64,000 nt of DNA, taken from assembly GCF_050920415.1 (NCBI RefSeq), contig NZ_CP169309.1. One strand, given 5' to 3'. Under the pieces are notes generated by a model that did no database searches, was not told where the DNA came from, and worked only from the letters and a program-made list of their open reading frames with translations. A program made the position numbers and the translations under genes. Below, piece by piece: positions 4,863 through 38,475 of the stretch. The first letter of the stretch is position 1. The number at the start of each line of letters is the position of its first letter. Source of the stretch: Escherichia coli (lineage in GTDB: Bacteria; Pseudomonadota; Gammaproteobacteria; Enterobacterales; Enterobacteriaceae).

Positions 4863-4876
4863 TTCCTGACTGATTT

Positions 4877-4901: not shown

Positions 4902-4996
4902 ACACCTTCTCCGGCACACAACACATTATTAAGAAACAAAAAAAACAGCGCCCAACACTTCCCCGGACGCTGCATGGCAACTTTAATAATCTCGCC

Positions 4997-6022: not shown

Positions 6023-6160
6023 GATTCGGCTCTCCATTTTTTGTTGCCTTAGATATCAATGAAAATGAAAAATGGCAGCGGAACGGAAAATCTGTTTTGT
6101 GAAAACACACGCATAAAAATGTTTTAAATCGGGTTTTAATGGACTCACAAGGAGGAAAAT

Positions 6161-7075: not shown

Positions 7076-7289
7076 GTACGGATTAAAAACAGCAAACTAT
7101 TAGCGGGTGCACGGTTTTATCAAAAGATAAATACCGGAAAATTCCCGCTTACCTATGCTCACAATCAGTCGACTAAAAATGTTTTTGTGAGCGGTAGTAA
7201 AGTCCTAAAACTTTTACCTGCCGTTAATGTCAACCTTGCGTAATGCACAATTACGTAAACAATTAAAATTATAAATACAGGAGTCCGGC

Positions 7290-8651
7290 GTGGAAAAAGA
7301 AAATATCACCCTCGATCCGCGTTCTTCATTTACTCCATCTTCGTCGGCAGATATTCCCGTGCCACCAGATGGATTAGTTCAACGCAGTACCCGAATTAAA
7401 CGCATTCAAACCACCGCCATGTTGTTATTATTTTTTGCGGCGGTAATCAATTATCTCGACCGCAGTTCACTGTCGGTAGCAAATTTAACGATTCGTGAAG
7501 AATTGGGATTAAGTGCCACCGAAATCGGCGCTTTGCTCTCCGTGTTTTCACTCGCTTACGGGATTGCGCAACTTCCTTGCGGCCCACTATTGGATCGTAA
7601 AGGCCCGCGCCTGATGCTGGGACTGGGGATGTTCTTCTGGTCACTGTTCCAGGCAATGTCTGGCATGGTGCACAGCTTTACGCAGTTCGTGTTGGTGCGT
7701 ATAGGTATGGGGATTGGTGAAGCGCCGATGAACCCATGCGGTGTAAAAGTCATTAACGACTGGTTCAACATCAAAGAGCGCGGACGCCCGATGGGCTTCT
7801 TCAACGCAGCTTCTACCATTGGCGTTGCCGTAAGCCCACCGATTCTGGCGGCGATGATGCTGGTGATGGGCTGGCGCGGGATGTTTATTACCATTGGTGT
7901 ACTGGGGATTTTTCTCGCCATCGGTTGGTATATGCTCTATCGCAACCGCGAGCACGTTGAACTGACTGCCGTTGAACAAGCCTATCTCAATGCCGGTAGC
8001 GTCAATGCCCGCCGTGATCCACTCAGTTTTGCTGAATGGCGCAGCCTGTTCCGTAACCGCACAATGTGGGGAATGATGCTCGGATTCAGTGGCATCAATT
8101 ACACTGCGTGGCTGTATCTGGCCTGGCTGCCAGGTTACCTGCAAACAGCCTATAACCTGGATTTAAAAAGCACCGGGTTGATGGCGGCTATCCCTTTCCT
8201 GTTTGGGGCTGCCGGGATGCTGGTCAATGGTTACGTTACCGACTGGCTGGTCAAAGGAGGAATGGCTCCGATTAAAAGCCGTAAGATCTGCATTATTGCC
8301 GGGATGTTCTGTTCTGCCGCCTTTACGCTGGTCGTACCGCAAGCGACAACATCCATGACAGCGGTTCTGCTGATTGGCATGGCACTGTTCTGTATTCACT
8401 TTGCCGGAACATCCTGCTGGGGCTTGATCCACGTCGCAGTTGCTTCTCGCATGACTGCGTCGGTGGGCAGTATCCAAAACTTTGCCAGCTTCATCTGCGC
8501 CTCTTTTGCGCCGATCATTACTGGTTTTATTGTTGATACCACCCACTCATTCCGTCTGGCGCTAATCATCTGCGGTTGCGTCACCGCGGCGGGTGCACTG
8601 GCATACATCTTCCTGGTCCGTCAGCCGATCAACGACCCACGTAAAGATTAA
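7290..8651 (+). CDS. lgoT: MFS transporter (L-galactonate:H+ symporter)
   Basis: 453 aa ORF with a GTG start and 12-TM MFS-like hydropathy; recognised as YjjL/LgoT. Confidence 0.88.
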   Translation: MEKENITLDPRSSFTPSSSADIPVPPDGLVQRSTRIKRIQTTAMLLLFFAAVINYLDRSSLSVANLTIREELGLSATEIGALLSVFSLAYGIAQLPCGPLLDRKGPRLMLGLGMFFWSLFQAMSGMVHSFTQFVLVRIGMGIGEAPMNPCGVKVINDWFNIKERGRPMGFFNAASTIGVAVSPPILAAMMLVMGWRGMFITIGVLGIFLAIGWYMLYRNREHVELTAVEQAYLNAGSVNARRDPLSFAEWRSLFRNRTMWGMMLGFSGINYTAWLYLAWLPGYLQTAYNLDLKSTGLMAAIPFLFGAAGMLVNGYVTDWLVKGGMAPIKSRKICIIAGMFCSAAFTLVVPQATTSMTAVLLIGMALFCIHFAGTSCWGLIHVAVASRMTASVGSIQNFASFICASFAPIITGFIVDTTHSFRLALIICGCVTAAGALAYIFLVRQPINDPRKD

Positions 8652-8658
8652 TTTCCCT

Positions 8659-8692
8659 ATGCCCGATAACATTTTGCTTATCGGGCATTTTT
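8659..8692 (+). terminator. rho-independent terminator downstream of lgoT
   Basis: 11 bp stem ATGCCCGATAA / TTATCGGGCAT followed by TTTT, read directly. Confidence 0.6.
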
Positions 8693-8699
8693 ATGGCGA

Positions 8700-10364
8700 T
8701 TAAAACGTTTCCCAGTTCTCTCCGCTATCTGCCACTGCCACTTTGCGCGGCGCAGATGGCGTCACAGTTTTTACTACTGCCGATGCTTCGCGCTGGCGTT
8801 GCTGCTCTTGCTGAATCCGGAACACTGCCACAGCTTCGGTCAGGCGACTGGCCTGCTCCTCCAGCGCGGCGGCGGCGGCGGCAGATTCTTCCACCAGCGC
8901 GGCGTTTTGTTGGGTTACTCGGTCCATCTCAGCTACTGCTAAGCCAACCTGATCGATACCACGGCTCTGCTCATCAGAAGCCGAAGCAATTTCGCCCATA
9001 ATGTCCGTCACGCGGGTCACAGCGCTGACAATCTCTGCCATGGTTTCCCCGGCGCTTTCGACCAGCGTAGAGCCAACATCCACTTTGCCCACCGAGTCTT
9101 CAATCAGGCTTTTAATTTCGCGAGCCGCCTGAGCGCTACGCTGGGCCAGATTACGCACTTCTCCCGCAACCACCGCAAAACCGCGCCCTTGCTCACCTGC
9201 ACGCGCTGCTTCAACCGCCGCGTTCAAAGCCAGAATATTGGTCTGGAAGGCAATGCCGTCAATTACGCTGATAATATCGGCGATTTTCTGCGAGCTGGTG
9301 GAGATATCGCGCATGGTCTGCACCACGTTATCCACCACTTTGCCGCCACGTTGCGCCGTTTCGGAAGCACTTAACGCCAGATGGCTAGCCTGACGCGCAT
9401 TCTCGGCGTTCTGTTTCACCGTTGCGGTCAGTTGTTCCATGCTGGCTGCCGTCTCTTCCAGCGAAGCGGCCTGTTGCTCGGTGCGCGAAGAGAGATCGTT
9501 ATTGCCGGTGGCGATTTCGCTGGCACCGCTATAGATAGCATTGGCCCCGTTGCGCACATCACCGACGGTACGCATCAGCTCCCCCTGCATATGGCGCAAA
9601 CTCTCTGCCAGTTGCCCCATCTCATTAGAACCATCCACCTCAATCGGTTTCACCAGATCGCCACCTGCAATATGACGAATGCTGTCAATCAGGCGATTCA
9701 TTGGCGCTACCAACGAGGCTTTAATACCGAACCAGACGGCGAAGATGACCGCCAGTACGACGATCATCACGCCCACCAGAATCCACATCGCCTGGCTGTA
9801 GGAGGCATTATTATCGCTGACGGCGATATCATAGAGCCGATCGTTTTGCTCCATGTAAGCCACATACTGCTTCTCGAAACCGTCCTGATATCCCTGAGTC
9901 GGCTGATCAAAGAATTCGTTGATTTTGCCTGCACCTAACAGTTGGATCAGTTCCGCCAGCGCATTGTGATAAATATCGTAATTACGTTTGATCTCTGCCG
10001 CTGCGGCGGTGCTCTGACGCGGGTCACGCGGCAATGCTTCGTAATCCGCCCAGTTTTTTTCCGCCTGTTTCAGCGAAATACTGGCACTCTGCATCAGCTC
10101 GGCAACGGTTGAACCGCTACCAATATTGTTCTGATCCATCATGTAGCGGATCCCCGCGCGGTTGAGGGTGTTACGCGTCTGCAACAACGCGACCCAGCTG
10201 CCATTCAGCGTGGATTGCTGCTGGCGAATGGTTTGTAAAACAGTGAAATTTTCTTTGTCATTCTTTAAGGCATTAAAGAACAGACCGCCTGATGTCAGTT
10301 GTAAAAGGCCAAAAACGGCCAAAACCAGCAGTAAGCTGGTCACGATCTTGATACGTTTTAACAT
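8700..10364 (-). CDS. tsr: methyl-accepting chemotaxis protein I, serine chemoreceptor
   Basis: The translation from the internal Met ([19 protein letters not shown]...) has the highly conserved MCP signalling domain and a C-terminal NWETF pentapeptide; recognised as Tsr. Confidence 0.95.
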
Positions 10365-10395
10365 GGTTTCTCTTTCCACTAGACAGATACACTGG

Positions 10396-10422
10396 TTGTC
10401 GGCCTGGTGGTGGAAAACTTTA
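10396..10422 (-). promoter_or_regulatory. sigma-28 (FliA) class III flagellar promoter for tsr
   Basis: On the minus strand the sequence reads TAAAGTTT-N11-GCCGACAA, a near-consensus match to TAAAGTTT-N11-GCCGATAA, about 30 bp upstream of the tsr start. Confidence 0.6.
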
Positions 10423-10503
10423 TGCTGTGGAAAAGCGTCGGCACTGCTTTTGTTGCAGCAAACTTGCGTTTTTTGTGAGGGTCACACTCTATAGCGGCAG
10501 TTT

Positions 10504-11409
10504 ATGGTACAAAGTATCAATCTTCTTCGAACCAGTGATACTCCTATGGCTTATAGCATCGATATCATCTCCTGCATTACCGAACGATTTATGGCGTTAA
10601 CAGCCACTGAAAAGCGTATCGCACAATTTATTCTTGATGACGTCTCTGCCGCAGTAGAGTTGCCAATTGCTGAGCTGGCACGGTTAACGCAAACCAGTCA
10701 GGCGTCGGTGACGCGTTTTGCCCGTGCACTGGGGTGCAAAGATGTCCGCGAGTTGAAAGTCAAACTGGCGCAGTCACTGGCTGTCGGGCAGCGGTTTATT
10801 CTCGATGTACCGGATCTTGACGGTGTTCAGGGGATCTACGAAGCGATTATTAGCGTGCTGGAAACGCATCGTCGTTCGCTGGATATGAATGCCATCAGCC
10901 AGGCTGTAAGCTGGTTAAGTCAGGCGCGGCAAATTCTTGCGTTAGGAACTGGCGGCGGTTCCACTATCTGTTCACAGGAGATTCAGTACCGTTTATTCCG
11001 TCTGGGGCTACCAGTGGTCAGTCAGAATGATGCCCTGATGATGAGAATGATGTGCTCGGCAGTGATGCCGCAGGATGTGGTGATTGTGCTGTCGCTGGGC
11101 GGTTATACACCGGAAATCATCGAAAGTGCGGCAATCGCCCGTCAGTATGGCGCGCGTGTTATTGCCATTACGCCAGCACAAACACCGCTGGCAGAACAGG
11201 TAGATCTGGTATTGCCGCTGCTGGTTCAGGAGAGTGATTACATCTTTAAACCCACGCCTTCCCGCTACGCGATGTTAGCCATGGTCGATGTACTGGCAAC
11301 GGAACTGGCAATGGCAAATAAAGCGCAGGCGAAAGATCGCCTGCGGCGGATAAAACTGGTGTTAGACAGCCACCGTGGGGGCGCTAACCGCCAGCCACTT
11401 GGCGATTAG
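10504..11409 (+). CDS. RpiR/MurR-family transcriptional regulator (HTH plus SIS sugar-phosphate-binding domain)
   Basis: 301 aa ORF; the domain pattern is recognised by eye. The start is uncertain, with an alternative ATG at 10546. Confidence 0.75.
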   Translation: MVQSINLLRTSDTPMAYSIDIISCITERFMALTATEKRIAQFILDDVSAAVELPIAELARLTQTSQASVTRFARALGCKDVRELKVKLAQSLAVGQRFILDVPDLDGVQGIYEAIISVLETHRRSLDMNAISQAVSWLSQARQILALGTGGGSTICSQEIQYRLFRLGLPVVSQNDALMMRMMCSAVMPQDVVIVLSLGGYTPEIIESAAIARQYGARVIAITPAQTPLAEQVDLVLPLLVQESDYIFKPTPSRYAMLAMVDVLATELAMANKAQAKDRLRRIKLVLDSHRGGANRQPLGD

Positions 11410-11418
11410 CATTGTCGG

Positions 11419-12888
11419 TTATGCTTCTTCAGGTTTGGTGATCACGACACTCTGGTTTTCACGCTCATTGGTGATAATAGCCAAAGCTTCTTCCCGGCTG
11501 ACCTGACTTGCTGGCGTTACCAACGTCACCAGTACGCCAGCGACCAGGCTGCCCAGCACTGACGGAATACACGGGTTACCCCAGTAAGCCAGCCAGTCGG
11601 CATTCATCAGCACCACAATTGACATCACCATACCGCTCACTAACGCCGCCAGCGCGCCCTGCCAGTTAAAGCGTAGCCAGAAGCGACCGAGAATCGAGCA
11701 GATAAACAGCCCGGACATCAGCATCGAAATCATTTTGGTAATGTAGCTGATGATGTCATTAGAGGTCAGAGCAAAGACCAGCGCCAGGCCAATAACAAAG
11801 GTCAACATCCAGCGTGAGTAAGTAATGGCCTTGTCCTCCGGCGGCATTCTGCCGGTAATCATGGTGTAGACGTCGCGCATCATAATCGCCACTGCCGCAA
11901 TGGCATCAGAACTGGCAGAAGACATGGTGGCAGAAAGCCCGGCAATCAGCACCACCAGCCCAAGAATGGCAGGTAAGAAGCTGGTCGCGAACAAGAAGGC
12001 ATAGTTACTGTTTTCCAGATTCGGGTTCATGGTGAACGCCGCCATGCCGATAATGGCAGGCAGAATCGAGAAGAACAGATACAACACGCCAGTAATAACA
12101 AATGAACGCCGTACAGAGGGAACGTCTTTTCCCGAGTAAATACGCTGGCGATAAGATGGTGTGGCCAGTACGCCGACACCAATAACCAGCGCCAGCGAAA
12201 GCGCAGGCAGCACGCCCATTTTATCAATCGCAAACAGGCTCATCGCTTTTGGGTCCATCGCCTGCTCAATCGCACTCCAGCCACCAACGTGAACAACGGC
12301 AAGAATAGCCATTAATATAAAGCCAAAGAACAGAATTAGGGCCTGAATGGTATCGGTCCACACTACCGCCGAATAACCGCCGATAATAACGTAAATCGCA
12401 AAAGCTAAGGCAATAATTAATTTTGCCACCGTAAGATCAATACCTGTTGCCCAGGCAAGATACATACTTCCACCTAATATATGCGCCCCCAGCCAGCCAA
12501 TAGAGGCAATAAATATCATCATGCCGACAATGTTTTTAATTAAATGACTGCCGCCAGTATAATAAGATATTTCTTCACTCATGGTCATAAAACGTAATTT
12601 ACGTACCGGTGCAAACAGCCACGCCACCAGTAATATACCTACGGCCCCACCGACGCCATAAAGCATTCCGGCCCAGCCATTGCTGTAGCCAAAGCCCACT
12701 GCGCCCATACTGGAACCCGTGCCAACCATCGTGGCAACGGTTGACCCCAGCGTCAGAAACAGCGGCAGCGAACGCCCGCCCAGCAGAAAATCTTCTCCGC
12801 TTTTCTGATTACGAGAAACAAACCAACCAAGCCAAATCATGGCGATGGCATAAATAATAAAGCCGACTAAAAAGATATGACTGTTCAT
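11419..12888 (-). CDS. sodium:solute symporter (SSS) family transporter
   Basis: 489 aa ORF, highly hydrophobic with multiple TM segments, PutP/PanF-like N-terminus, and an AGGA Shine-Dalgarno before the ATG. Confidence 0.8.
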   Translation of the reverse strand: MNSHIFLVGFIIYAIAMIWLGWFVSRNQKSGEDFLLGGRSLPLFLTLGSTVATMVGTGSSMGAVGFGYSNGWAGMLYGVGGAVGILLVAWLFAPVRKLRFMTMSEEISYYTGGSHLIKNIVGMMIFIASIGWLGAHILGGSMYLAWATGIDLTVAKLIIALAFAIYVIIGGYSAVVWTDTIQALILFFGFILMAILAVVHVGGWSAIEQAMDPKAMSLFAIDKMGVLPALSLALVIGVGVLATPSYRQRIYSGKDVPSVRRSFVITGVLYLFFSILPAIIGMAAFTMNPNLENSNYAFLFATSFLPAILGLVVLIAGLSATMSSASSDAIAAVAIMMRDVYTMITGRMPPEDKAITYSRWMLTFVIGLALVFALTSNDIISYITKMISMLMSGLFICSILGRFWLRFNWQGALAALVSGMVMSIVVLMNADWLAYWGNPCIPSVLGSLVAGVLVTLVTPASQVSREEALAIITNERENQSVVITKPEEA

Positions 12889-12990
12889 AATTCACATCCT
12901 GCCAGTAGAGAGAGAATAATGTAAGAGTTCCCGGAGTGCTGAATGTATTCAGCACTCAATTGCGGTCTGTTTTTTTAATTCTTAAATTTA

Positions 12991-13386
12991 TTAGCGGGTC
13001 GCGTTATAACAGGTCACATCGACTTCGACTTTACAATCGACAACCAGATCAGCCACACAACAAATACGTGCAGGCGGATTCTCGCCAAAAAATTCTCTGA
13101 ATACTTTATTAAATGACTGGAAATAGCGGGCGTCGGTCAGGATCACTTTCACGTGAACCACATCCGCCAGGCTATAACCGGCTTCAGTCATGATGTCGAC
13201 ACAGTTTTGGATCGCCAGTCGTGACTGTTCAACGATTCCGCCTTCTACCACTTCACCGTTTTTCATGGGTGTTTGCCCGGAGACGTACAGCCAGCCGCCC
13301 GCCTCAACCGCCCTGGCAAAAGGCAAATGCTGCCCGCCAGTGCCTGTTCCACCTTCCGTACCGTAACGTTTAATGCTCATATTCAC
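12991..13386 (-). CDS. RidA/YjgF/TdcF-family enamine/imine deaminase
   Basis: 131 aa ORF with a conserved Rid-family C-terminal region; the stop is 3 bp from the start of the upstream deacylase gene. Confidence 0.8.
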   Translation of the reverse strand: MNMSIKRYGTEGGTGTGGQHLPFARAVEAGGWLYVSGQTPMKNGEVVEGGIVEQSRLAIQNCVDIMTEAGYSLADVVHVKVILTDARYFQSFNKVFREFFGENPPARICCVADLVVDCKVEVDVTCYNATR

Positions 13387-13389
13387 TCC

Positions 13390-14841
13390 TTAATGTGAGG
13401 TCTGCCGGCGCAGGAAGCGTCCCGCACGGCCTGTAATATGTTTATCGCGACCATAGCTCATAACGCCGTTCACCATCACCGCCTCAATGCCATCTGCCGG
13501 GCGTTTGGGATCAGAAAAGCTGGCAACATCACGAATGGTTTGTGGATCGAACAACACCAGGTCCGCAAAATAGCCAACTTTCACCAGTCCACGCTGGGGC
13601 AGGCGAAAACGGCTGGCAGAAAGCCCGGTCATTTTGTGGATAGCCGTGGTCAGAGGGAATAAACCTTCATCACGGCAATAGTGACCCAGCACGCGAGGGA
13701 AGGCGCCCCATAAACGTGGATGCGGCATGGGATCATTGGGCAGGCCGTCAGAGCCAATCATACTGACTGGATAACTCAATACTCTGCGGACGTCGCGCTC
13801 GTCCATGTTGTAATAGATAGCCCCGGCAGGCATTAGCAGCTTCGCGGCCTCCAGCATACTCATCTGCCAGTCGATGGCGATTTGCGCCAGTGTTTTCCCG
13901 GCCTGCTGCGGATGTGTTTGTGACCAGGTGATCACAATATCGAATTCGTCGGTGACTTGTTTGAGATCCAGCGTTGAAGAGCTGGCTGAGTAAGGGTAGA
14001 CATCGCAGCCAATTTCCTGGTGTTGACGCATTTGGTCAAAAAAAGCCAACGTTTCTTTTGTCCGCCCCCAGTTTTTCGCCCCGGCGCATTTATGGTGGGA
14101 AACCACGACAGGCACTTTGCCATGACGCCCAATACGAAACGCCTCATCCAGGGCATCGAGAATCGGTTCAAATTCAGAACGCAGATGGGTGGTATAAACG
14201 CCCTTCTCACCGGCTAATTCTTCCGCCAGCGCCATGACTTCTTCGGTAGTCGCCTGAAATGCTGTGGCATAGGCCAGCCCGGAACTTAACCCCAGCGCCC
14301 CCTGACTCAACGCCAGACGTAAGTCGGCGCGCATGGCGGCAATTTCATCCGCCGTCGCCGGGCGAAACAGGTCGTCCATATGGTTATTACGCAGCGCCGT
14401 ATGACCAATCAGCGTGCCAACGTTCAGTGACGGCCTGGCTGCTTCCACTGCCTGGGCATAGCTTTCAACGGTAGGATAAATAAAGTGCTCCGCTTCCCCC
14501 AACAGATTCATCGGGTCAGGAACTTCGCCTTTCATTTTCGCCGACGCCGCACTGATCCCGCAGTTACCGACAATCACCGTGGTGATCCCCTGGCTGATTT
14601 TTGGCAGATATTCCGGGATGCGAATAACGTTGATATCGTCATGGGTATGAACGTCGATAAACCCTGGTGCCAGCACCCGCCCTTCCCCGTCAATGACCTG
14701 CTGCGCCGTAACGTTAAGCGCAGGGGCAATATCGACAATCCGATCACCTGTTATTGCCACGTCACCGCGAAATTCAGGGCCGCCGCTACCGTCGATAACG
14801 GTCACATTTTTGATTAACCAGTCAACCTGCATGTTCGTCAC
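13390..14841 (-). CDS. N-acyl-D-amino-acid deacylase (D-aminoacylase) family amidohydrolase
   Basis: 483 aa ORF with a metal-dependent amidohydrolase N-terminus (DGxG...PGFIDVHTHDD) typical of D-aminoacylases. Confidence 0.8.
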   Translation of the reverse strand: MTNMQVDWLIKNVTVIDGSGGPEFRGDVAITGDRIVDIAPALNVTAQQVIDGEGRVLAPGFIDVHTHDDINVIRIPEYLPKISQGITTVIVGNCGISAASAKMKGEVPDPMNLLGEAEHFIYPTVESYAQAVEAARPSLNVGTLIGHTALRNNHMDDLFRPATADEIAAMRADLRLALSQGALGLSSGLAYATAFQATTEEVMALAEELAGEKGVYTTHLRSEFEPILDALDEAFRIGRHGKVPVVVSHHKCAGAKNWGRTKETLAFFDQMRQHQEIGCDVYPYSASSSTLDLKQVTDEFDIVITWSQTHPQQAGKTLAQIAIDWQMSMLEAAKLLMPAGAIYYNMDERDVRRVLSYPVSMIGSDGLPNDPMPHPRLWGAFPRVLGHYCRDEGLFPLTTAIHKMTGLSASRFRLPQRGLVKVGYFADLVLFDPQTIRDVASFSDPKRPADGIEAVMVNGVMSYGRDKHITGRAGRFLRRQTSH

Positions 14842-15032
14842 TCCATTTCTGCAATGGTGACAAGTTAACCATTTACAAGGATGAAAAACAGTGGAAAACT
14901 ACGCAAAACCCAGATGATTTTATGATACTTTTATTCATAAACTATAAGATAAATAAACTAAATATTTATATTTCATTTAGTTACAAATGATACTCACATC
15001 CGATACGGTGAAAAACTTAAAAGGTAAATGTT

Positions 15033-16253
15033 ATGAAATACCACTCAGAACCTCTGGTTCCCCATAAATCGGCCCTGATGCAAATGCCCGCAAATCTCCT
15101 TGCCGAAGATGTCTGTTTACCTGCCGCGATCATTAAAAAGCAGGCCCTGGAGAACAACATTACGTGGATGCAGCGTTATGCTGACGCGCGCGGCGTTTCG
15201 CTGGCACCGCACGGTAAAACCACCATGACGCCGTGGATTTTTCAGGCGCAGCAGGCGGCTGGTGCCTGGGCAATAGGTGTCGGTAGCGCATGGCAGGCTG
15301 GTGCGGCAATGGCGAGCGGTATTCAGCGAGTGCTGATGGTTAACCAGCTGGTCGGCAAGGCGAATATGCAGTTGATTGCCCGGTTGCAACAACATTACCC
15401 GACGGTCGATTTTATCTGCTGTATCGACAGCATTGAGAACGCCCGCGCTTTGTCTGCCTTTTTTGCCAGTCAGCAACAGACACTGAACGTGATGATTGAG
15501 CTGGGTGTTCCCGGCGGACGCTGTGGTTGCCGCTCAACGGATGCCGCACTGGCACTGGCTAAACAGGCGGCCCAATTACCAGGGCTACGTCTGCGCGGGC
15601 TTGAGTTATATGAAGGTGTTTTACACGGTGACGATCCACAACCGCAGGTAGAAGCTCTGCTGCGGGATGCCGCACAACTGGCCTGTGATATGGCAAGTCT
15701 GGTTGATGGCGAGTTTATTCTCACCGGAGCAGGCACGGTCTGGTATGACGTGGTGTGCAATATCTGGCTGGCGGCAGAAAAGCCTGATAACTGCCGCATT
15801 GTTATTCGCCCTGGCTGCTACATCACTCACGACACCGGGATCTACGACGCGGCACAACAACAGTTGCTTGCCCGCGATCCTGTGGCCTGCGATCTTGCAG
15901 GCGATCTCACATCTGCGCTGGAACTGGTCGCCATGGTGCAATCGGTGCCGGAAGCTGATCGTGCGGTGGTAAATTTTGGTAAGCGTGATTGCGCCTTCGA
16001 CGCCGGACTGCCGCAACCAGTCGCCCACTACCGCAACGGCAAATCACTGGCATTTGATCCACAGGCGATTCGCAGTACAGGTATTATGGATCAGCACTGC
16101 ATGTTGCAACTGTCAGCTAATAGCGACGTGCAAGTGGGGGATATTCTGGTGTTTGGCACATCGCATCCGTGCCTGACCTTCGACAAATGGAAAACGTTGT
16201 TATTGGCTGATGACGACTACAACGTACTGGCAGAGCTGGATACGCTGTTTTGA
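15033..16253 (+). CDS. PLP-dependent enzyme of the alanine-racemase fold (DSD1-like D-serine or D-threo-hydroxy-amino-acid dehydratase/aldolase type)
   Basis: 406 aa ORF with an N-terminal region containing the HGKT lysine motif characteristic of fold-type III PLP enzymes; divergent from the deacylase-RidA-transporter operon. Confidence 0.7.
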   Translation: MKYHSEPLVPHKSALMQMPANLLAEDVCLPAAIIKKQALENNITWMQRYADARGVSLAPHGKTTMTPWIFQAQQAAGAWAIGVGSAWQAGAAMASGIQRVLMVNQLVGKANMQLIARLQQHYPTVDFICCIDSIENARALSAFFASQQQTLNVMIELGVPGGRCGCRSTDAALALAKQAAQLPGLRLRGLELYEGVLHGDDPQPQVEALLRDAAQLACDMASLVDGEFILTGAGTVWYDVVCNIWLAAEKPDNCRIVIRPGCYITHDTGIYDAAQQQLLARDPVACDLAGDLTSALELVAMVQSVPEADRAVVNFGKRDCAFDAGLPQPVAHYRNGKSLAFDPQAIRSTGIMDQHCMLQLSANSDVQVGDILVFGTSHPCLTFDKWKTLLLADDDYNVLAELDTLF

Positions 16254-16311: not shown

Positions 16312-17322
16312 TCAGCTACTTATGGATCGAATATCATCATAGATTGACTGGCTGATCTCTACCCCCTGTTGCTCACTGCGCAATCGTGCCTGGTAGCGAC
16401 GTTCTCCCGGCAGGCGCGCGCCCTGAGCCTGCATCTGACTAAACAGCGTTTCCGCCCTTGCCAGATGCCTCCCTGCATCCTCACCAAGAAAACGCTGCGG
16501 ATCGAGTGCCAGGATCAACTCTCCACCATACGGCAAACCACCTGCACCGTTATCCCACGCAAGAGACTCAGCACTGGTCATATCGCCAATCAGTGGTCCC
16601 GCAATCAGCTCCACCATCGCTGCCAGTGCCGAACCTTTATGACCGCCGAAGGTTAACATTGCTCCGTCCAACACAGCTTGTGGATCGGTGGTGGCATTGC
16701 CATGGCTGTCGATCCCCCAACCTTCAGGAAGTGATTTCCCGGCTCGCTGATGTAACTGAATCTCCCCGCGTGCCGCCGCACTGGTCGCCATATCAAAAAT
16801 AAATGGCGGCAGCTTGTCGCGCGGCCAACCAAACGCGATTGGGTTAGTACCAAAAAGAGGTTTGCCCCCCCCTTTCGGCGCAACCCAGGCATGGCTTGGC
16901 GTGGTCGCCAGCGCCACCAGTCCGGCTTCAGTCAGCGGTTCAACATCCGCAAATAAGGCGGAGTAGTGAACACAATGATTAATTGCCAGTGCTGCAATCC
17001 CGCACTGACGCGTTTTCTCGATCAGTAACGGTAGTGCCTGCTGATAAGCCAACAGCGAATAGCCACCTTTGGCATCGGCCTTAACGATTGCCGGAGCCTG
17101 AGATTCCACTGTCGGCAGAGCATCGGCAGAGACTTTCCCTTTTCGCAGCGTGTCAACAATCCCCAGCAGTCGCCATAAACCGTGCGAGGCACAACCGTCG
17201 CGCTCCCCGGCGGTAACGTTTTTCGCGATCACCACTGCATGTTGCTCACTAAATCCGTTACTAATGAGCGCATGATAGGCTAGTGCGTAAGCCTCTGATA
17301 ACGAGAGGATTACTCTATCCAT
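16312..17322 (-). CDS. Ldh_2-family (malate/L-lactate dehydrogenase-like) oxidoreductase, delta1-pyrroline-2-carboxylate or delta1-piperideine-2-carboxylate reductase-like
   Basis: 336 aa ORF resembling the Ldh_2 family, which includes Pyr2C/Pip2C reductases and ureidoglycolate dehydrogenase. Confidence 0.7.
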   Translation of the reverse strand: MDRVILSLSEAYALAYHALISNGFSEQHAVVIAKNVTAGERDGCASHGLWRLLGIVDTLRKGKVSADALPTVESQAPAIVKADAKGGYSLLAYQQALPLLIEKTRQCGIAALAINHCVHYSALFADVEPLTEAGLVALATTPSHAWVAPKGGGKPLFGTNPIAFGWPRDKLPPFIFDMATSAAARGEIQLHQRAGKSLPEGWGIDSHGNATTDPQAVLDGAMLTFGGHKGSALAAMVELIAGPLIGDMTSAESLAWDNGAGGLPYGGELILALDPQRFLGEDAGRHLARAETLFSQMQAQGARLPGERRYQARLRSEQQGVEISQSIYDDIRSISS

Positions 17323-17333
17323 TTTCTACTCCT

Positions 17334-18935
17334 TTATTCTTCTTCATCCCCGTTAAAGTTCGCCCGAGGAAGACAGGTGTATGCGCCCCAGTAATAAATT
17401 CCCAACGACATCAGCGCGACGACGATAGTATCCCACGGGTGCCCTATAATGCCGCTACCGCCAAAGCTACCCAGCCAGGAAAACAGCATAATCAGGGCAT
17501 AGAAGGCAATAAGCCACAATGAAGATTTAATCTGCTGCGCCAGGCTGACATGCTGAACAGGCACTTTCGACTTGCAACTCACGTAAACCACAAACATTAC
17601 GATTTGTAGCCCCAGCAGCCAGGAAAGCGTCCCCCAACCAGACCAAAAAACAATCAGTGCGGAAATCATAAAAGAGAGTGGGCCAAGCACCGCAAAACCA
17701 CGAACGCGGAACGGGCGCGGCATATCAGGTGCATTACGGCGCAGTCCTGCAGCTGTAACCGGCGCGATGGCGTAGCTCAGTACCAGAGCCGCAGAAACCA
17801 CGCTAATCAATTGCTCCCACGACGGGAACGGTAGCGTCCAGAAGATAGATAAACCAAACGTCAGCCACAGTGCCGGACGTGGAATACCTGACTCCTTATC
17901 GATATGAGTAAAGGTTTTAAAGAATGTCCCCGCCTTCGCCCAGCCATAGATCACACGCGGTGTCGCATTCATGTAAATATTGCCAGTGCCGCTGGGAGAC
18001 ACAATAGCATCACATACCACCATAAATGCCAGCCAGCCCATCCCGAGAGTAATGGCGATATCGCGATATGGCAGCGAATAGTTCTTACTGATCTCCGCCC
18101 AACCACCACTTAGCGATTCAGTTGGAATACTGCCCAAAAAGGCGACCTGCAACAGAACGTAGATGATGGTCGAGAGAATTACCGAGAGGATCAGCGCAAA
18201 TGGGATGGTACGTTGCGGATTTTGCGCCTCGCTGGCTACGGAGATAATCGGTGTCAGTCCAAGGTAAGCGAAGATAATCCCACCCGCGCTAATTGCCGCT
18301 TCCACTCCTGACATACCAAATGGAGCCATACCCTGTATATGCAGATTCTCCGGTTTGAAGAAGGCAAATAACGTTATTACCACCAGCAACGGCACCAGAA
18401 ACTTCAGCACGCTAATAAAATTGTTCGAGCGAGCGAAAGTTTTAACACTGTAGTAGTTCAGGGCAAAAAAGAAGCACAACAGTAAGAACTGCACCACCCA
18501 GCCTAACAGCGTCGGGTCACTACTCCCCGTCTGCGTCAGCGCAGGAAACCAGGCGGCGGCATATTGCCGTGCGGCTACAATCTCAATGGAGATCAGGCTG
18601 GAGAAGGCAATCAGGGTAATAAAACCCAGCAGATAGCCCATCAATTCGCCGTGCGAAAATACCGGGTAACGAATAATACCGCCCGCGCGGGGAAGCGCCG
18701 CCCCCAGTTCGCAGTAAATAATCCCCAGTAGCAGCACCGCAAAACCGCCAATAACCCAGGAAGCAATCCCTGCTGGGCCAGCGATCGATGCGACATGGCT
18801 GGCAGCAAACAGCCAGCCAGAACCGAAAATCGCCCCCAGACCAATAAAGGTCAAGTCGGTGAGCGTTAACTGCTTTTTAAACTTCCCCGACTCAACAACG
18901 ACGGTTTGCGTGCTTTGGGTAGAAGGAATTGTCAT
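17334..18935 (-). CDS. APC-superfamily amino-acid permease
   Basis: Polytopic membrane protein. The start was moved to the internal ATG at 18935 to remove a 40 bp overlap with the upstream gene. Confidence 0.8.
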   Translation of the reverse strand: MTIPSTQSTQTVVVESGKFKKQLTLTDLTFIGLGAIFGSGWLFAASHVASIAGPAGIASWVIGGFAVLLLGIIYCELGAALPRAGGIIRYPVFSHGELMGYLLGFITLIAFSSLISIEIVAARQYAAAWFPALTQTGSSDPTLLGWVVQFLLLCFFFALNYYSVKTFARSNNFISVLKFLVPLLVVITLFAFFKPENLHIQGMAPFGMSGVEAAISAGGIIFAYLGLTPIISVASEAQNPQRTIPFALILSVILSTIIYVLLQVAFLGSIPTESLSGGWAEISKNYSLPYRDIAITLGMGWLAFMVVCDAIVSPSGTGNIYMNATPRVIYGWAKAGTFFKTFTHIDKESGIPRPALWLTFGLSIFWTLPFPSWEQLISVVSAALVLSYAIAPVTAAGLRRNAPDMPRPFRVRGFAVLGPLSFMISALIVFWSGWGTLSWLLGLQIVMFVVYVSCKSKVPVQHVSLAQQIKSSLWLIAFYALIMLFSWLGSFGGSGIIGHPWDTIVVALMSLGIYYWGAYTCLPRANFNGDEEE

Positions 18936-18946
18936 AGTGATGCCCT

Positions 18947-20557
18947 TCAATGAGTCAACAAGGAGGAAATGGCTTCCCGGGTCCACTGGCCGTTAACCAA
19001 GCGCAGCAGGTTTAATGGATTACTGTCCTGCAGCGCAGGCGGTAATAGTGCAGCGGGTGCATTTTGCAGGCATACCGGGCGCAGAAAACGAGTAATGGCC
19101 AGCGTGCCTACGGACGTGCCGCGCGCGTCGGTGGTTGCCGGGAACGGACCACCGTGTACCATGGCATCGCAAACCTCGACGCCGGTGGGATAGCCATTGA
19201 ACAATACGCGTCCGGCTTTATCAGCCAACAATGGCAATAAACGACCAGCCAGTTGCCGGTCATCCTCATCCGCCTGAAGTGTGGCAGTAAGTTGCCCTTG
19301 CAGAGCGTTAATTACCTGCAACAACTCCGCTTCATCAGCGGCTTCAACCACAATCGCGAGCGGCCCGAACACTTCCTCCTGCAACAGAGGATCTTTTTCA
19401 AGTATGTTTGCCGCCTGAGCCTGATAGAGACGAGTTTCTGCTCGTCCGGCTTGATGATTATCGTCCCCCGCCAAACACCGAATAGTCGGATGTTCTGCCA
19501 GTTTCTCCACGCTGTGGCGATAGTGCTCAAGCGTGGAGGCGTTTAGCATGAGTTGCGGTGTGGCGGCATTCACTTTCTCAACCAGTTGCTGTAAAAAGTC
19601 CGCGTTTTTCTCCCCTTTCAGCAACACAATCAGGCCTGGTTTAGTGCAGAACTGTCCACATCCCAACGTGAACGACGCGACTAAATCGCGGGCCAGCGTA
19701 TCGGCACGTACTGATAGCGCCTGCGGCAGAATGAAAAAGGGATTGAGAGCCGACATTTCGGCAAAAACCGGTATCGGCTGTGGACGCTGTTGGGCCAAAC
19801 GAAAGAGCGCCATGCCACCACGTAATGAGCCGGTAAAACCCACCGCCTGAATTGCGGGATGTTTCACCAGTTCAGCACCGATATCAGTACCGAAAATCAT
19901 ATTGAATACGCCTGCGGGCATGGCGCATTTAGTCACGGCACGAGCGATCGCTGATGCGATAATTTCTGCCGTTGCCATATGCCCAGGATGCGCTTTCACA
20001 ACTACCGGGCATCCTGCAGCCAGTGCCGCTGCTGTATCACCACCGGCGATAGAAAAAGCGAGTGGAAAGTTGCTGGCACCAAATACCGCCACCGGCCCGA
20101 GAGCCGTTTTATACTGGCGCAAATCCGGTCGAGGCAGAGGCTGACGCTCCGGCAACGCAGTATCAATTCTTACCTCAAACAGATCGCCCCGACGTAATAA
20201 CCCGGCAAACATGCGCATCTGCCCGCTGGTTCTTGCCCGCTCTCCCTGTAAACGCGCCAGGGGTAACGCTGTCTCCTGATGTGCCGTAGCGAACAGTTCG
20301 TCGCCTGCTGCATCAAGTTCATCGGCGATGGTTTCTAAAAAATCGGCACGTTGCCCGGCATTGGTCAGTGAATAGCACACAAAAGCCTGCTGCGCCGCAA
20401 TAGCCGCCTGCTCGGCCTCCTCCACGGAGGCCGGGTAAAAACGTTGCCCGGTAGGTTCGCCATCCTGCGCTCGCAGGCTGACCAGCGACGGTTCACCGCT
20501 GGCAACACGTTGCCCGGCGATGAACTGTTGCCCGGTGAAAGGGAAAGTTTCAGTCAT
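18947..20557 (-). CDS. NAD(P)-dependent aldehyde dehydrogenase, 2,5-dioxovalerate (alpha-ketoglutarate semialdehyde) dehydrogenase-like
   Basis: 536 aa ALDH-superfamily protein with catalytic Cys context (GQFCTKPG) and a length typical of KGSADH. Confidence 0.8.
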   Translation of the reverse strand: MTETFPFTGQQFIAGQRVASGEPSLVSLRAQDGEPTGQRFYPASVEEAEQAAIAAQQAFVCYSLTNAGQRADFLETIADELDAAGDELFATAHQETALPLARLQGERARTSGQMRMFAGLLRRGDLFEVRIDTALPERQPLPRPDLRQYKTALGPVAVFGASNFPLAFSIAGGDTAAALAAGCPVVVKAHPGHMATAEIIASAIARAVTKCAMPAGVFNMIFGTDIGAELVKHPAIQAVGFTGSLRGGMALFRLAQQRPQPIPVFAEMSALNPFFILPQALSVRADTLARDLVASFTLGCGQFCTKPGLIVLLKGEKNADFLQQLVEKVNAATPQLMLNASTLEHYRHSVEKLAEHPTIRCLAGDDNHQAGRAETRLYQAQAANILEKDPLLQEEVFGPLAIVVEAADEAELLQVINALQGQLTATLQADEDDRQLAGRLLPLLADKAGRVLFNGYPTGVEVCDAMVHGGPFPATTDARGTSVGTLAITRFLRPVCLQNAPAALLPPALQDSNPLNLLRLVNGQWTREAISSLLTH

Positions 20558-20572
20558 AATCTCTCCCCCACC

Positions 20573-21514: not shown

Positions 21515-21644
21515 TCTGTTGCGTCAATGTGAATTAAAAGTGAATCTTCATTAACAGATTGACCTCTCCTTGCGCTGGCGGCTTGTCGATTTTCTTTCCC
21601 CAGGATGACGAAATTAGCACAATGCCCAGTTGTGATTTGTCGTG

Positions 21645-34975: not shown

Positions 34976-34983
34976 CGCATTTT

Positions 34984-38469: not shown

Positions 38470-38475
38470 GTATTT

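What the first reader, a model, noticed from the sequence alone, without database searches (positions are those of the whole stretch)
10504..16253. Second module in the island: candidate N-acyl-D-amino-acid uptake and catabolism (SSS transporter, D-aminoacylase, RidA, DSD1-like PLP enzyme, RpiR regulator)
A sodium:solute symporter, a RidA deaminase and a D-aminoacylase-family amidohydrolase form one operon, divergent from a fold-type III PLP enzyme of the D-serine dehydratase / D-threonine aldolase type. A coherent chemistry is deacylation of an N-acyl-D-amino acid, PLP-dependent elimination on the released D-hydroxy amino acid, and RidA-assisted hydrolysis of the enamine/imine to a 2-oxo acid. 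The substrate is unknown.
Basis: inference. Interest (0 to 1): 0.55.

Follow-up and report, generated by a model that had tools for sequence, protein, structure and literature searches.

The report
E. coli copy of oxidized-chitin-sugar pathway

Summary
The five genes are real, intact and under strong purifying selection. They form a self-contained accessory module between tsr and btsT, present in 194 of 5,426 complete E. coli genomes. About 160 of those carry it without the neighbouring hydroxyproline genes.

All five proteins match, over their full length, the characterized ong cluster of Pseudoalteromonas prydzensis:
- OngR 44%
- OngIT 57%
- OngD 83%
- OngB 54%
- OngC 45%

That cluster converts 2-acetamido-2-deoxy-D-gluconate (GlcNAc1A) to glucosaminate and then to 2-keto-3-deoxygluconate. 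The E. coli amidohydrolase keeps every residue that binds the sugar acid in the PpOngB crystal structure except one (G348 to N). It lacks the hydrophobic pocket of true D-aminoacylases.

The "unknown" substrate is an N-acetyl-hexosaminic acid. E. coli lacks the cluster's kinase, hexosaminidase and outer-membrane receptor.

One new twist: related enterobacterial clusters carry a DgoK/DgoA-type (galactonate-type) kinase and aldolase. Vibrio clusters carry the KdgK/Eda type instead. The enteric clade may therefore use the C4 epimer, N-acetyl-galactosaminate.

Jiang et al. 2022 already list E. coli strains as ong-positive in a supplementary table. Novelty is low and interest is moderate.

The parts
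10546..11409 (+). ongR-like MurR/RpiR (HexR-like) transcriptional regulator with HTH and SIS domains; the maximal ORF starts at 10504
   Evidence: 44% identity over 284 aa to P. prydzensis OngR and 55% to V. harveyi OngR. Best NCBIfam match is HexR, 199 bits, below its cut-off. PGAP start at 10546. OngR is a repressor in P. prydzensis.
11419..12888 (-). ongIT-like sodium:solute symporter, the predicted inner-membrane importer of the N-acetyl-hexosaminate
   Evidence: 57% identity over 475 aa to OngIT of P. prydzensis and 69% to the V. harveyi protein. Matches the SSS superfamily model only. Deleting ongIT abolishes growth on GlcNAc1A in P. prydzensis.
12889..12990 (.). 102-nt spacer between the RidA and SSS genes, with a perfect 11-bp-stem hairpin at 12934-12957 that has no T-tract after it
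   Evidence: Read directly from the sequence. Function unknown.
12991..13380 (-). ongD-like RidA-family protein, a predicted 2-imino/enamine deaminase
   Evidence: 83% identity to P. prydzensis OngD and 85% to V. harveyi OngD. The 'PAR' arginine aligns with the same motif in RidA-family structures. OngD is essential in vivo in P. prydzensis.
13390..14832 (-). ongB-like metal-dependent N-acetyl-hexosaminate deacetylase (D-aminoacylase-like fold, subtype V Cys/His/His site)
   Evidence: PDB matches: KleDacyl 9G5M at E 7e-282 (84% identity), PpOngB 9KB1 at 1e-167 (54%), A. faecalis D-aminoacylase 1M7J at 9e-137. It keeps 17 of the 18 metal, catalytic and substrate-binding residues of PpOngB.
14833..15032 (.). 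divergent control region with three sequence blocks conserved across Enterobacterales: 14862-14879 AAGTTAACCATTTACAAG, 14887-14908 AACAGTGGAAAACTACGCAAAA, 14923-14937 TGATACTTTTATTCA
   Evidence: Alignment of 26 enterobacterial intergenic regions. Each exact block occurs only once in the 64-kb window. The role as promoter or OngR operator is inferred, not tested.
15033..16253 (+). ongC-like fold-type III PLP enzyme (hexosaminate ammonia-lyase/dehydratase of the D-serine-dehydratase type)
   Evidence: 45% identity over 399 aa to P. prydzensis OngC and 48% to V. harveyi OngC. Pfam PF01168 plus PF14031. The PHGKTT lysine (K62) and SHPC (H378/C380) are invariant against OngC. Closest solved structure is 3GWQ, 361 bits. 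It sits next to an OngB homologue in 52 of 53 enterobacterial loci and in nearly all marine loci.

Best explanation
This is a five-gene, cut-down version of the 'ong' cluster for uptake and catabolism of an N-acetyl-D-hexosaminic acid. The most likely substrate is 2-acetamido-2-deoxy-D-gluconate (GlcNAc1A), the oxidized sugar made when lytic polysaccharide monooxygenases or sugar oxidases act on chitin or GlcNAc.

Proposed steps:
1. The sodium:solute symporter imports the free sugar acid.
2. The OngB-like zinc amidohydrolase removes the acetyl group, giving D-glucosaminate, a D-beta-hydroxy-alpha-amino acid.
3. The OngC-like PLP enzyme eliminates the C3 hydroxyl and then ammonia, via an enamine/imine.
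4. The RidA-like protein speeds hydrolysis of that reactive imine, giving 2-keto-3-deoxygluconate.
5. Because the module has no kinase or aldolase, the product is finished by the core-genome KdgK and Eda, yielding pyruvate and glyceraldehyde-3-phosphate.
6. The HexR-like RpiR protein represses the divergent promoters until the substrate or a downstream intermediate appears.

E. coli has no lpmo, GH20 OngA or TonB receptor. It would therefore scavenge monomer made by other organisms.

Basis of each step:
- Steps 1-3 and the repressor role are shown in Pseudoalteromonas and transferred here by homology.
- The RidA role, the use of KdgK/Eda and the regulator's effector are inferred.

I put mechanism-level confidence (an N-acetyl-hexosaminate route of this kind) at about 0.85. 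The figure below is for GlcNAc1A specifically.
For: All five proteins match the P. prydzensis DSM 14232 (= ACAM 620) ong proteins over their full length: OngR 44%, OngIT 57%, OngD 83%, OngB 54%, OngC 45%. They are closer still to the V. harveyi cluster: 55, 69, 85, 61 and 48%.

The ong pathway has genetic and biochemical support (PMC9537276). Vibrio strains with the cluster grow on GlcNAc1A and those without it do not.

The E. coli OngB-like protein aligns without gaps to PpOngB. It keeps the following residue groups:
- metal ligands C97/H222/H252 and the catalytic D368;
- the acetamido- and carboxylate-binding residues L116/Y194/K254/Y285/S291/L370/R379;
- the sugar-hydroxyl residues and small pocket residues E226/S290/S292/Q298/A193/A256.
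A. faecalis D-aminoacylase has F, M, G and T at positions 193, 256, 290 and 292.

PfOngB is only 57% identical to PpOngB and is still GlcNAc1A-specific.

KleDacyl is 84% identical to the E. coli protein and is encoded inside the K. pneumoniae ong-like cluster. It is a poor D-acylase: Km 32 mM and kcat/Km 2.8 per min per mM on N-acetyl-D-Met.

The five-gene core is syntenic in nearly all 79 loci recovered from 79 species. The genes are under strong purifying selection in Escherichia.

Jiang et al. list E. coli strains gene by gene as ong-cluster positive.
Against: Nothing has been tested in E. coli or in any enterobacterium.

The E. coli module lacks kdgK, ongA and ongOT-1.

In 33 of 53 enterobacterial loci the cluster carries a DgoA-type aldolase, most of them with a DGOK-family kinase as well. 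The GlcNAc1A-validated Vibrio and Pseudoalteromonas clusters carry KdgK/Eda-type genes instead. This argues that the enteric clade may produce the galacto-configured keto-deoxy acid.

OngB position 348 is Asn in the main enteric clade, but Gly or Cys in marine clusters.

No NCBIfam equivalog model reaches its cut-off for any of the five proteins.
Confidence: 0.55

Rival explanations
1. The mechanism is the same, but the physiological substrate of the enterobacterial clade, including E. coli, is the C4 epimer: 2-acetamido-2-deoxy-D-galactonate (N-acetyl-D-galactosaminate). Deacetylation and PLP elimination would give 2-keto-3-deoxy-D-galactonate. That enters the De Ley-Doudoroff route through a DgoK-type kinase and a DgoA-type aldolase. 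Klebsiella, Raoultella and Serratia encode these in the cluster. E. coli would borrow them from its core dgo operon.
For: In Raoultella, Klebsiella, Rahnella, Buttiauxella, Serratia, Providencia and others, two extra genes lie between the SSS and regulator genes.
- One is a PF05035 DGOK-family kinase (1e-91). It scores 309 bits to the K. pneumoniae 2-oxo-3-deoxygalactonate kinase 3R1X.
- The other is an aldolase 50-70% identical to E. coli DgoA in the 36 enterobacterial loci that have one (41% in one marine locus). It scores 274 bits to 2V81 against 49 bits to Eda, and passes the NCBIfam KDPGal-aldolase cut-off.
- All 37 such aldolases keep K126 and the 'AVGG' valine (V154 of DgoA). From memory of Walters et al. 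2008, this is the residue that distinguishes KDPGal from KDPG aldolase (Thr161).

The Vibrio harveyi cluster belongs to a genus in which cluster-positive strains grow on GlcNAc1A. It has instead a PfkB KdgK (371 bits to the KdgK model) and an Eda-type aldolase with 'PTGG'.

OngB position 348 tracks the split: N or Q in enterics, G or C in marine clusters.
Against: E. coli itself lacks the DgoK/DgoA-type genes.

Every residue that contacts GlcNAc1A in PpOngB is conserved, including E226, which binds the C4 hydroxyl.

Paralogous kinases and aldolases can change specificity.

No natural source or catabolic route for N-acetyl-galactosaminate is described in the searchable literature.

Serratia and Klebsiella carry lpmo, which makes GlcNAc1A ends.

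In E. coli the core dgo operon is induced by D-galactonate (my recollection of Singh et al. 2019). KDGal made this way might therefore not be consumed.
Confidence: 0.3
2. This is a generic route for ordinary N-acyl-D-amino acids, for example N-acetyl-D-serine, -threonine or -methionine, which is the plain reading of the first reader's title. The amidohydrolase acts as a true D-aminoacylase. The PLP enzyme acts as a D-serine/D-threonine dehydratase.
For: KleDacyl (84% identical) hydrolyses N-acetyl-D-Met, -Phe, -Trp and -aminobutyrate with strict D-specificity. P. prydzensis OngC also deaminates D-Ser and D-Thr. [quoted passage not shown]
Against: KleDacyl's activity is very weak, with Km 19-32 mM or more and kcat/Km 1.5-2.8 per min per mM.

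PpOngB, PaOngB and PfOngB have no detectable activity on N-acetyl-D-amino acids.

The hydrophobic pocket residues of AfDam are replaced by Ala/Ala/Gln/Asn, and Thr by Ser, exactly as in OngB.

The regulator is a sugar-phosphate-type SIS/HexR-like protein. The transporter groups with sugar and sialic-acid SSS members rather than amino-acid ones. Related clusters carry keto-deoxy-sugar-acid kinases and aldolases, which make no sense for Ser, Thr or Met.
Confidence: 0.08
3. In E. coli the module is a non-functional remnant of a larger enterobacterial cluster, left after loss of the kinase and aldolase genes.
For: The kinase and aldolase present in Klebsiella and Raoultella are missing, with only 9 nt between the regulator and transporter genes. 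The module is patchy, at 3.6% of genomes. It is disrupted by IS3 in some strains and truncated in one.
Against: All five genes are full length. dN/dS is 0.00-0.11 between E. coli lineages and against Escherichia sp. E1V33, at dS up to 0.56. Several marine and enteric species also have kinase-less clusters. E. coli has core kdgK/eda and dgoK/dgoA (established knowledge, not checked here).
Confidence: 0.04

Closest known systems
ong cluster of Pseudoalteromonas prydzensis ACAM 620 (oxidative chitin utilization; Jiang et al. 2022, Nat Commun 13:5899, PMC9537276)
   Same: It has the same five core proteins: the RpiR repressor OngR, the SSS importer OngIT, the RidA protein OngD, the D-aminoacylase-like deacetylase OngB and the fold-type III PLP deaminase OngC. 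Identities are 44-83% over full length. The predicted chemistry is the same: deacetylation, then deamination to a 2-keto-3-deoxy acid without prior phosphorylation.
   Different: The E. coli module has no TonB-dependent receptor (ongOT-1), no GH20 hexosaminidase (ongA) and no PfkB kinase (kdgK). There is no lpmo in the genome according to the authors' table. Gene order also differs: E. coli has ongR | ongIT-ongD-ongB <> ongC, against ongC-R-B-D and ongIT-kdgK-ongA. E. coli could use only the free monomer.
Enterobacterial ong-like clusters (Klebsiella, Raoultella, Serratia, Rahnella and others), including the crystallized 'D-acylase' KleDacyl (PDB 9G5M/9GV8; PMC12149444)
   Same: These are the closest relatives: OngB 72-86%, OngC 65-84%, and the same divergent layout and conserved control-region blocks. 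Raoultella even has the same adjacent hydroxyproline module. KleDacyl is the OngB-like gene of the K. pneumoniae cluster, at 99.8% identity to L005.
   Different: Most of them carry a DGOK-family kinase and a DgoA-type aldolase between the transporter and regulator genes. E. coli and Escherichia sp. E1V33 do not. KleDacyl was characterized only on N-acetyl-D-amino acids, never on sugar acids.
D-aminoacylase of Alcaligenes faecalis (PDB 1M7J) and N-acyl-D-glutamate deacylase Bb3285 (PDB 3GIP)
   Same: [quoted passage not shown]
   Different: The side-chain pocket differs. E. coli has A190, A253, S289, Q295 and N345, where AfDam has Phe191, Met254, a Thr, Leu298 and Met346, and Bb3285 has Arg295. 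The PDB scores are lower (460 and 392 bits, against 562 for PpOngB).
DSD1-type D-serine dehydratase, D-threo-3-hydroxyaspartate dehydratase and D-threonine aldolase (fold-type III PLP); structural-genomics entry 3GWQ
   Same: The same two Pfam domains (PF01168 and PF14031), a PLP lysine in PHGKTT, and a His-x-Cys motif near the C-terminus. 3GWQ aligns end to end at 361 bits.
   Different: It is only distantly related to the characterized dehydratases and aldolases (57-100 bits, mostly over the N-terminal domain). The OngC clade is separate. Its validated substrate is D-glucosaminate, with side activity on D-Ser and D-Thr.
Salmonella dga pathway for D-glucosaminate (mannose-family PTS, DgaE ammonia-lyase, DgaF aldolase; recalled from Miller et al. 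2013, not checked here)
   Same: It also turns a hexosaminic acid into a keto-deoxy-phosphogluconate and then into pyruvate plus glyceraldehyde-3-phosphate.
   Different: That route phosphorylates first, through a PTS, and uses a fold-type I enzyme on the 6-phosphate. The module here acts on the unphosphorylated N-acetylated acid, using an SSS importer and a fold-type III enzyme.

Membership tests
ong cluster (GlcNAc1A catabolism, Jiang et al. 2022) | An OngB-type deacetylase with the GlcNAc1A-binding residues of the PpOngB crystal structure (A193, E226, A256, S290, S291, S292, Q298, G348, plus the shared metal, catalytic and carboxylate residues) | tested here: met
   17 of 18 positions are identical in a gapless alignment. 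The only change is G348 to N345.
ong cluster (GlcNAc1A catabolism, Jiang et al. 2022) | An adjacent OngC-type fold-type III PLP deaminase | tested here: met
   45% identity over 399 aa to P. prydzensis OngC. The gene is divergent from, and adjacent to, the OngB-like gene. This adjacency holds in nearly all 79 loci.
ong cluster (GlcNAc1A catabolism, Jiang et al. 2022) | The RidA-family OngD, the SSS-family OngIT and the MurR/RpiR OngR in the same cluster | tested here: met
   83%, 57% and 44% identity respectively, all full length and all contiguous.
ong cluster (GlcNAc1A catabolism, Jiang et al. 2022) | A cluster-encoded KDG kinase (PfkB KdgK) | tested here: not met
   tblastn finds no match to P. 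prydzensis KdgK anywhere in the 64-kb window. The authors' table also shows '-' for E. coli. The kinase is also absent from several marine clusters.
ong cluster (GlcNAc1A catabolism, Jiang et al. 2022) | The periplasmic GH20 hexosaminidase OngA, the TonB-dependent receptor OngOT-1, and an AA10 lpmo in the genome | tested here: not met
   Neither OngA nor the TBDR has a match in the window or in any enterobacterial locus. lpmo is '-' for E. coli in Suppl. Data 3 of the paper. I did not search the rest of the genome.
ong cluster (GlcNAc1A catabolism, Jiang et al. 2022) | Growth on and induction by GlcNAc1A; enzymatic conversion of GlcNAc1A to GlcN1A and then KDG | not testable with these tools
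   This needs wet-lab work. No published test in any enterobacterium was found.
[quoted passage not shown] | A hydrophobic side-chain pocket (Phe191, Met254, Leu298, Met346, and Thr at the Ser292-equivalent position) and efficient hydrolysis of N-acetyl-D-Met and similar substrates | tested here: not met
   The pocket residues are Ala, Ala, Gln, Asn and Ser. The 84%-identical KleDacyl has Km 32 mM and kcat/Km 2.8 per min per mM on N-acetyl-D-Met.
Amidohydrolase superfamily subtype V (D-aminoacylase-like fold) | Cys/His/His metal ligands and a catalytic Asp | tested here: met
   C94, H219, H249 and D365 in E. coli correspond to C97, H222, H252 and D368 in PpOngB.
   Only short N-terminal matches of 35-54 bits, far below the cut-offs of 279-728.
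DSD1-type D-serine dehydratase family (fold-type III PLP) | An alanine-racemase-like N-terminal barrel with a PLP lysine, plus a C-terminal D-ser_dehydrat domain with a His/Cys metal motif | tested here: met
   PF01168 at 8.9e-13 and PF14031 at 4.8e-16. K62 in PHGKTT and H378/C380 in SHPC are conserved with OngC and 3GWQ. The metal-binding role of His/Cys is recalled from the chicken DSD and Delftia D-THA dehydratase structures, not tested here.
RidA (archetypal imine/enamine deaminase subfamily) | The conserved arginine (Arg105 in Salmonella RidA) needed for imine hydrolysis | tested here: met
   The 'PPARI' motif aligns with 'KPARV' of PH0854, and the protein matches TdcF and YjgF structures. 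It scores 82 bits on TIGR00004, below the 106-bit cut-off. The role of the arginine is established knowledge (Lambrecht et al. 2012), recalled.
De Ley-Doudoroff lower pathway attached to the cluster (DgoK/DgoA type) | A DGOK-family kinase and a KDPGal-type aldolase encoded in the cluster | tested here: not met
   Both are absent from E. coli and Escherichia sp. E1V33. The aldolase is present in 33 of 53 enterobacterial loci, most of them with a DGOK-type kinase.

The most novel reading that the evidence does not exclude
The enterobacterial branch of the ong family, including this E. coli module, may not be a GlcNAc1A pathway. It may be a previously undescribed route for the C4 epimer, N-acetyl-D-galactosaminic acid. 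That route would feed 2-keto-3-deoxy-galactonate into a dedicated DgoK/DgoA-type lower pathway. E. coli lost or never had those two genes and would rely on its core dgo genes. This would define a new catabolic pathway and a new nutrient, oxidized GalNAc, perhaps from oxidized mucin or microbial glycans, for gut and plant-associated Enterobacterales.
Probability: 0.3. Interest if true: 0.55.

Novelty: new member of a known kind. Interest (0 to 1): 0.33.

Why it matters
It gives a specific, testable function to five accessory E. coli genes that currently carry only generic annotations. That function is scavenging of oxidized amino sugar (N-acetyl-hexosaminic acid) released by other organisms' chitin oxidation or by sugar oxidases.

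It also re-reads a crystallized 'D-acylase' from Klebsiella (9G5M) as most likely a sugar-acid deacetylase whose natural substrate was never assayed.

Finally, it flags a clean genomic contrast. Marine clusters validated on GlcNAc1A carry a KdgK/Eda-type lower pathway, while enterobacterial clusters carry a DgoK/DgoA-type one. This could mean that the enteric clade uses a different epimer.

None of this changes a major question. The pathway type is published, and E. coli is already listed as a carrier in a supplementary table.

Tried and rejected
- **NCBIfam naming.** No equivalog model reached its cut-off for any of the five proteins; only generic superfamily or subfamily matches appeared. 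Naming by HMM alone led nowhere.
- **Ldh-family oxidoreductase (16312-17322).** I considered it as part of the module, because it also follows the PLP gene in Klebsiella and Raoultella. I rejected this: about 160 E. coli genomes have the five genes without it, and it heads the hydroxyproline operon.
- **Operator search.** I looked for a palindromic HexR/RpiR-type operator in the divergent region. The AT-rich inverted repeats at 14946-14983 are not conserved in other Enterobacterales. The conserved blocks are not palindromes. No operator can be claimed.
- **Literature.** Searches for N-acetyl-glucosaminate or -galactosaminate catabolism in enterics found nothing relevant.
- **Thaumasiovibrio and Vibrio sp. 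10N loci.** These were fetched to type the Vibrio kinase and aldolase, but they have none in the cluster. V. harveyi gave the answer.
- **Further partner genes.** A survey of enterobacterial loci found nothing beyond the seven genes. The recurrent neighbours are unrelated PTS, GH1 and GH4 sugar genes.
- **Rejected identities.** Dihydroorotase, hydantoinase and alanine racemase were rejected.
- **Not attempted.** I did not try structure prediction or docking, because the tools return no ligand geometry that could separate the gluco and galacto epimers.

Full report
**Observation.** The five ORFs are present on the stated strands. The window is 100% identical to the chromosome of E. coli MFDS1022581 (NZ_CP169399.1). 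[quoted passage not shown] PGAP and alignment to orthologues place three starts slightly inside the maximal ORFs: 10546, 13380 and 14832. The module lies between tsr and btsT.

**Distribution in E. coli.** The five genes occur in 194 of 5,426 complete E. coli genomes, always on the chromosome. The adjacent hydroxyproline-catabolism genes (Ldh-family oxidoreductase through the FAD oxidoreductases) occur in only 34. In most carriers the five genes stand alone between tsr and btsT. The finding's coordinates therefore delimit a self-contained unit. Between E. coli lineages, and against Escherichia sp. E1V33, dN/dS is 0.00-0.11 with no internal stops. The genes are maintained by selection.

**What it is.** A PDB sequence search with the amidohydrolase returned three informative matches:
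- the Klebsiella pneumoniae 'D-acylase' KleDacyl (9G5M), E 7e-282;
- PpOngB (9KB1), E 1e-167, the GlcNAc1A deacetylase of Pseudoalteromonas prydzensis;
- the classical Alcaligenes D-aminoacylase, E 9e-137.

Jiang et al. 2022 (PMC9537276) showed by transcriptomics, knock-outs and enzymology that the P. prydzensis ong cluster imports and degrades 2-acetamido-2-deoxy-D-gluconate (GlcNAc1A). [quoted passage not shown] OngB deacetylates GlcNAc1A to glucosaminate. OngC, a fold-type III PLP enzyme, converts glucosaminate to 2-keto-3-deoxygluconate plus ammonia. KdgK phosphorylates the product. OngIT, an SSS transporter, is needed for uptake. OngR, an RpiR protein, is a repressor. OngD, a RidA protein, is essential in vivo with no assigned reaction.

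I retrieved the ong locus of the type strain, P. prydzensis DSM 14232 = ACAM 620 (L081). All five E. coli proteins match its products over their full length: OngR 44%, OngIT 57%, OngD 83%, OngB 54%, OngC 45%. Against the Vibrio harveyi cluster the figures are 55, 69, 85, 61 and 48%.

**Membership test for OngB.** The 2025 structure paper (PMC12017989) lists the residues that bind GlcNAc1A and those that separate OngB from D-aminoacylases. The E. coli protein aligns to PpOngB without gaps, at an offset of 3. It keeps the following groups:
- the metal ligands and the catalytic Asp;
- the acetamido and carboxylate ligands L116, Y194, K254, Y285, S291, L370 and R379;
- the hydroxyl ligands E226, S290, S292 and Q298;
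- the small pocket residues A193 and A256.

The only difference is G348 to Asn. AfDam has F, M, G and T at positions 193, 256, 290 and 292. PfOngB, only 57% identical to PpOngB, is still specific for GlcNAc1A and inactive on N-acetyl-D-amino acids.

KleDacyl is 84% identical to the E. coli protein. It is the gene inside the K. pneumoniae ong-like cluster, at 99.8% identity to L005. It was assayed only on N-acetyl-D-amino acids and is weak on them: Km 32 mM and kcat/Km 2.8 per min per mM for N-acetyl-D-Met. PpOngB on GlcNAc1A reaches 1.6 per s per mM. The published 'D-acylase' activity is most simply read as a side activity.

**The other four proteins.**
- **PLP enzyme.** It has the Ala_racemase_N and D-ser_dehydrat Pfam domains. 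The PHGKTT lysine and an SHPC motif are conserved with OngC and with the structural-genomics entry 3GWQ, its closest solved relative. Characterized D-threonine aldolases and D-threo-3-hydroxyaspartate dehydratase are far more distant.
- **RidA protein.** It keeps the 'PAR' arginine.
- **Regulator.** Its best match is HexR, below the cut-off.
- **Transporter.** It matches only the SSS superfamily model.

**Comparative genomics.** A scan of one genome per species with an OngC alignment returned 79 loci. The PLP, deacetylase and RidA genes are adjacent in nearly all of them, usually with the SSS and RpiR genes.

Marine loci add the GH20 hexosaminidase, and often a PfkB kinase and a TonB receptor. 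Enterobacterial loci never have the hexosaminidase or receptor.

Many enterobacterial loci (33 of 53) carry an aldolase between the transporter and regulator genes, most of them with a kinase as well. These two genes are of a different kind from the marine ones:
- The kinase is a DGOK-family protein (PF05035, 1e-91). It scores 309 bits to the K. pneumoniae 2-oxo-3-deoxygalactonate kinase.
- The aldolase is 50-70% identical to E. coli DgoA in the 36 enterobacterial loci that have one (one marine locus has a 41% match). It passes the NCBIfam KDPGal-aldolase cut-off and keeps the 'AVGG' valine in all 37 cases.

V. harveyi belongs to a genus in which cluster-positive isolates grow on GlcNAc1A and cluster-negative ones do not. 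Its cluster carries a PfkB KdgK and an Eda-type aldolase with 'PTGG'.

E. coli and Escherichia sp. E1V33 have neither pair. The regulator and transporter genes are 9 nt apart, and no kinase or aldolase homologue lies anywhere in the window.

**Mechanism.** The steps shown by homology to a tested system are import by the SSS protein, deacetylation by the OngB-like enzyme, PLP-dependent elimination and deamination by the OngC-like enzyme, and repression by the RpiR protein. Three points are inferred:
- The RidA protein hydrolyses the 2-imino/enamine intermediate. This is the family's established role and fits the in vivo requirement for OngD.
- The keto-deoxy acid is finished by core-genome KdgK/Eda, or by DgoK/DgoA.
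- E. coli scavenges free monomer, because it lacks lpmo, OngA and the receptor.

The divergent control region holds three blocks conserved across 26 enterobacterial species, at 14862-14879, 14887-14908 and 14923-14937. Their role is untested and they are not palindromic.

**Which epimer?** PLP elimination does not touch C4. A gluco substrate therefore gives KDG and a galacto substrate gives KDGal. The clean split in lower-pathway genes is hard to explain if the enteric clusters make KDG: every enteric bacterium already has a KDG-inducible kdgK/eda. OngB position 348 follows the same split, with G or C in marine clusters and N or Q in enterics.

Against this, all GlcNAc1A-contacting residues are conserved. 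E. coli itself lacks the galactonate-type genes. Serratia and Klebsiella have lpmo. No source or pathway for N-acetyl-galactosaminate is described.

I put GlcNAc1A at about 0.55, the galacto epimer at about 0.3, ordinary N-acyl-D-amino acids at under 0.1, and a dead remnant at under 0.05.

**Novelty.** The pathway type was published in 2022. Jiang et al. noted ong clusters in terrestrial Klebsiella and Serratia. Their Supplementary Data 3 lists E. coli strains (CVM N36401PS, E308 and others) gene by gene as ong-positive, with lpmo, ongOT-1, kdgK and ongA absent.

The E. coli module is therefore an uncharacterized member of a known kind. Three points appear to be new here:
- the observation that the module is autonomous in E. 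coli;
- the re-reading of KleDacyl;
- the DgoK/DgoA versus KdgK/Eda contrast, which the authors labelled simply 'kdgA'.

**Limits.** No enzyme or growth data exist for any enterobacterial member. Three points rest on my recollection of the literature rather than on a tool result: the Val154/Thr161 stereochemical determinant, the RidA arginine, and the His/Cys metal site. I did not verify kdgK/eda/dgo in this genome.

Noticed in passing
window 16312-26343: This is the adjacent hydroxyproline-catabolism module: an Ldh-family oxidoreductase, APC permease, aldehyde dehydrogenase, DHDPS-family protein, AraC regulator, 4-hydroxyproline epimerase, two FAD oxidoreductases and a 2Fe-2S protein. It occurs in only 34 of 5,426 complete E. 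coli genomes, against 194 for the ong-like module. The two modules are also adjacent in Raoultella ornithinolytica (L004), next to opgB.
   Followed up: partly
L004-L058 (enterobacterial loci), e.g. L004:4825-6355: Enterobacterial ong-like clusters carry a DGOK-family kinase and a DgoA-type aldolase ('AVGG'). The Vibrio cluster carries a PfkB KdgK and an Eda-type aldolase ('PTGG'). The 2022 paper labels the enteric aldolase 'kdgA' without noting this difference.
   Followed up: yes
L005:8364-9800 (K. pneumoniae ATCC 13883): The crystallized 'D-acylase' KleDacyl (PDB 9G5M/9GV8) is 99.8% identical to the OngB-like gene of the K. pneumoniae ong-like cluster. It was never assayed on a sugar acid, so its annotation as a D-acylase is probably a side-activity label.
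   Followed up: yes
window 12991-13380 and OngD homologues: The RidA protein is far more conserved than its neighbours: 83-85% identity between E. coli and marine bacteria, against 44-69% for the other four proteins. It has an unusual Gly/Thr-rich N-terminal stretch (GTEGGTGTGGQHLPF). In P. prydzensis it is essential in vivo, yet no in vitro activity was found.
   Followed up: partly
window 12934-12957: A perfect 11-bp-stem hairpin (GAGTGCTGAAT-GT-ATTCAGCACTC) lies in the 102-nt RidA-SSS spacer, with no T-tract after it. Its function is unknown.
   Followed up: no
E. coli genomes NZ_CP101233.1 and NZ_CP032073.1 (hits H4, H5); NZ_CP116411.1 (H29): In two strains the module is interrupted by an IS3-family element: the match splits into two pieces spanning about 7.26 kb. 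In strain HH45 only about 38% of the query matches (window 13966-16231, covering part of the deacylase gene and most of the PLP gene).
   Followed up: no
L056 (Providencia rettgeri) 3932-11227; also L044, L047, L054, L057, L058: This second enterobacterial layout is a single operon of kinase, DgoA-like aldolase, OngB, RidA, SSS and OngC. In Providencia an IclR/KdgR-family regulator replaces RpiR. OngB carries S193, G290 and Q348.
   Followed up: partly
L007 (record titled Chryseobacterium sp. 18061): This contig carries an enterobacterial-type cluster with 81-93% protein identity to E. coli and Klebsiella-like synteny. The assembly is probably contaminated or mislabelled.
   Followed up: no
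PDB 3GWQ: The Burkholderia 'D-serine deaminase' structural-genomics entry aligns end to end with the E. coli OngC-like protein (361 bits). It is probably a member of the OngC family rather than a dedicated D-serine enzyme. I did not examine its genomic context.
   Followed up: no
window 50001-52000 and 34001-40000: These stretches have markedly low G+C: 36% at 50-52 kb and 44-46% at 34-40 kb, against about 51% elsewhere. This suggests other horizontally acquired segments in the window.
   Followed up: no
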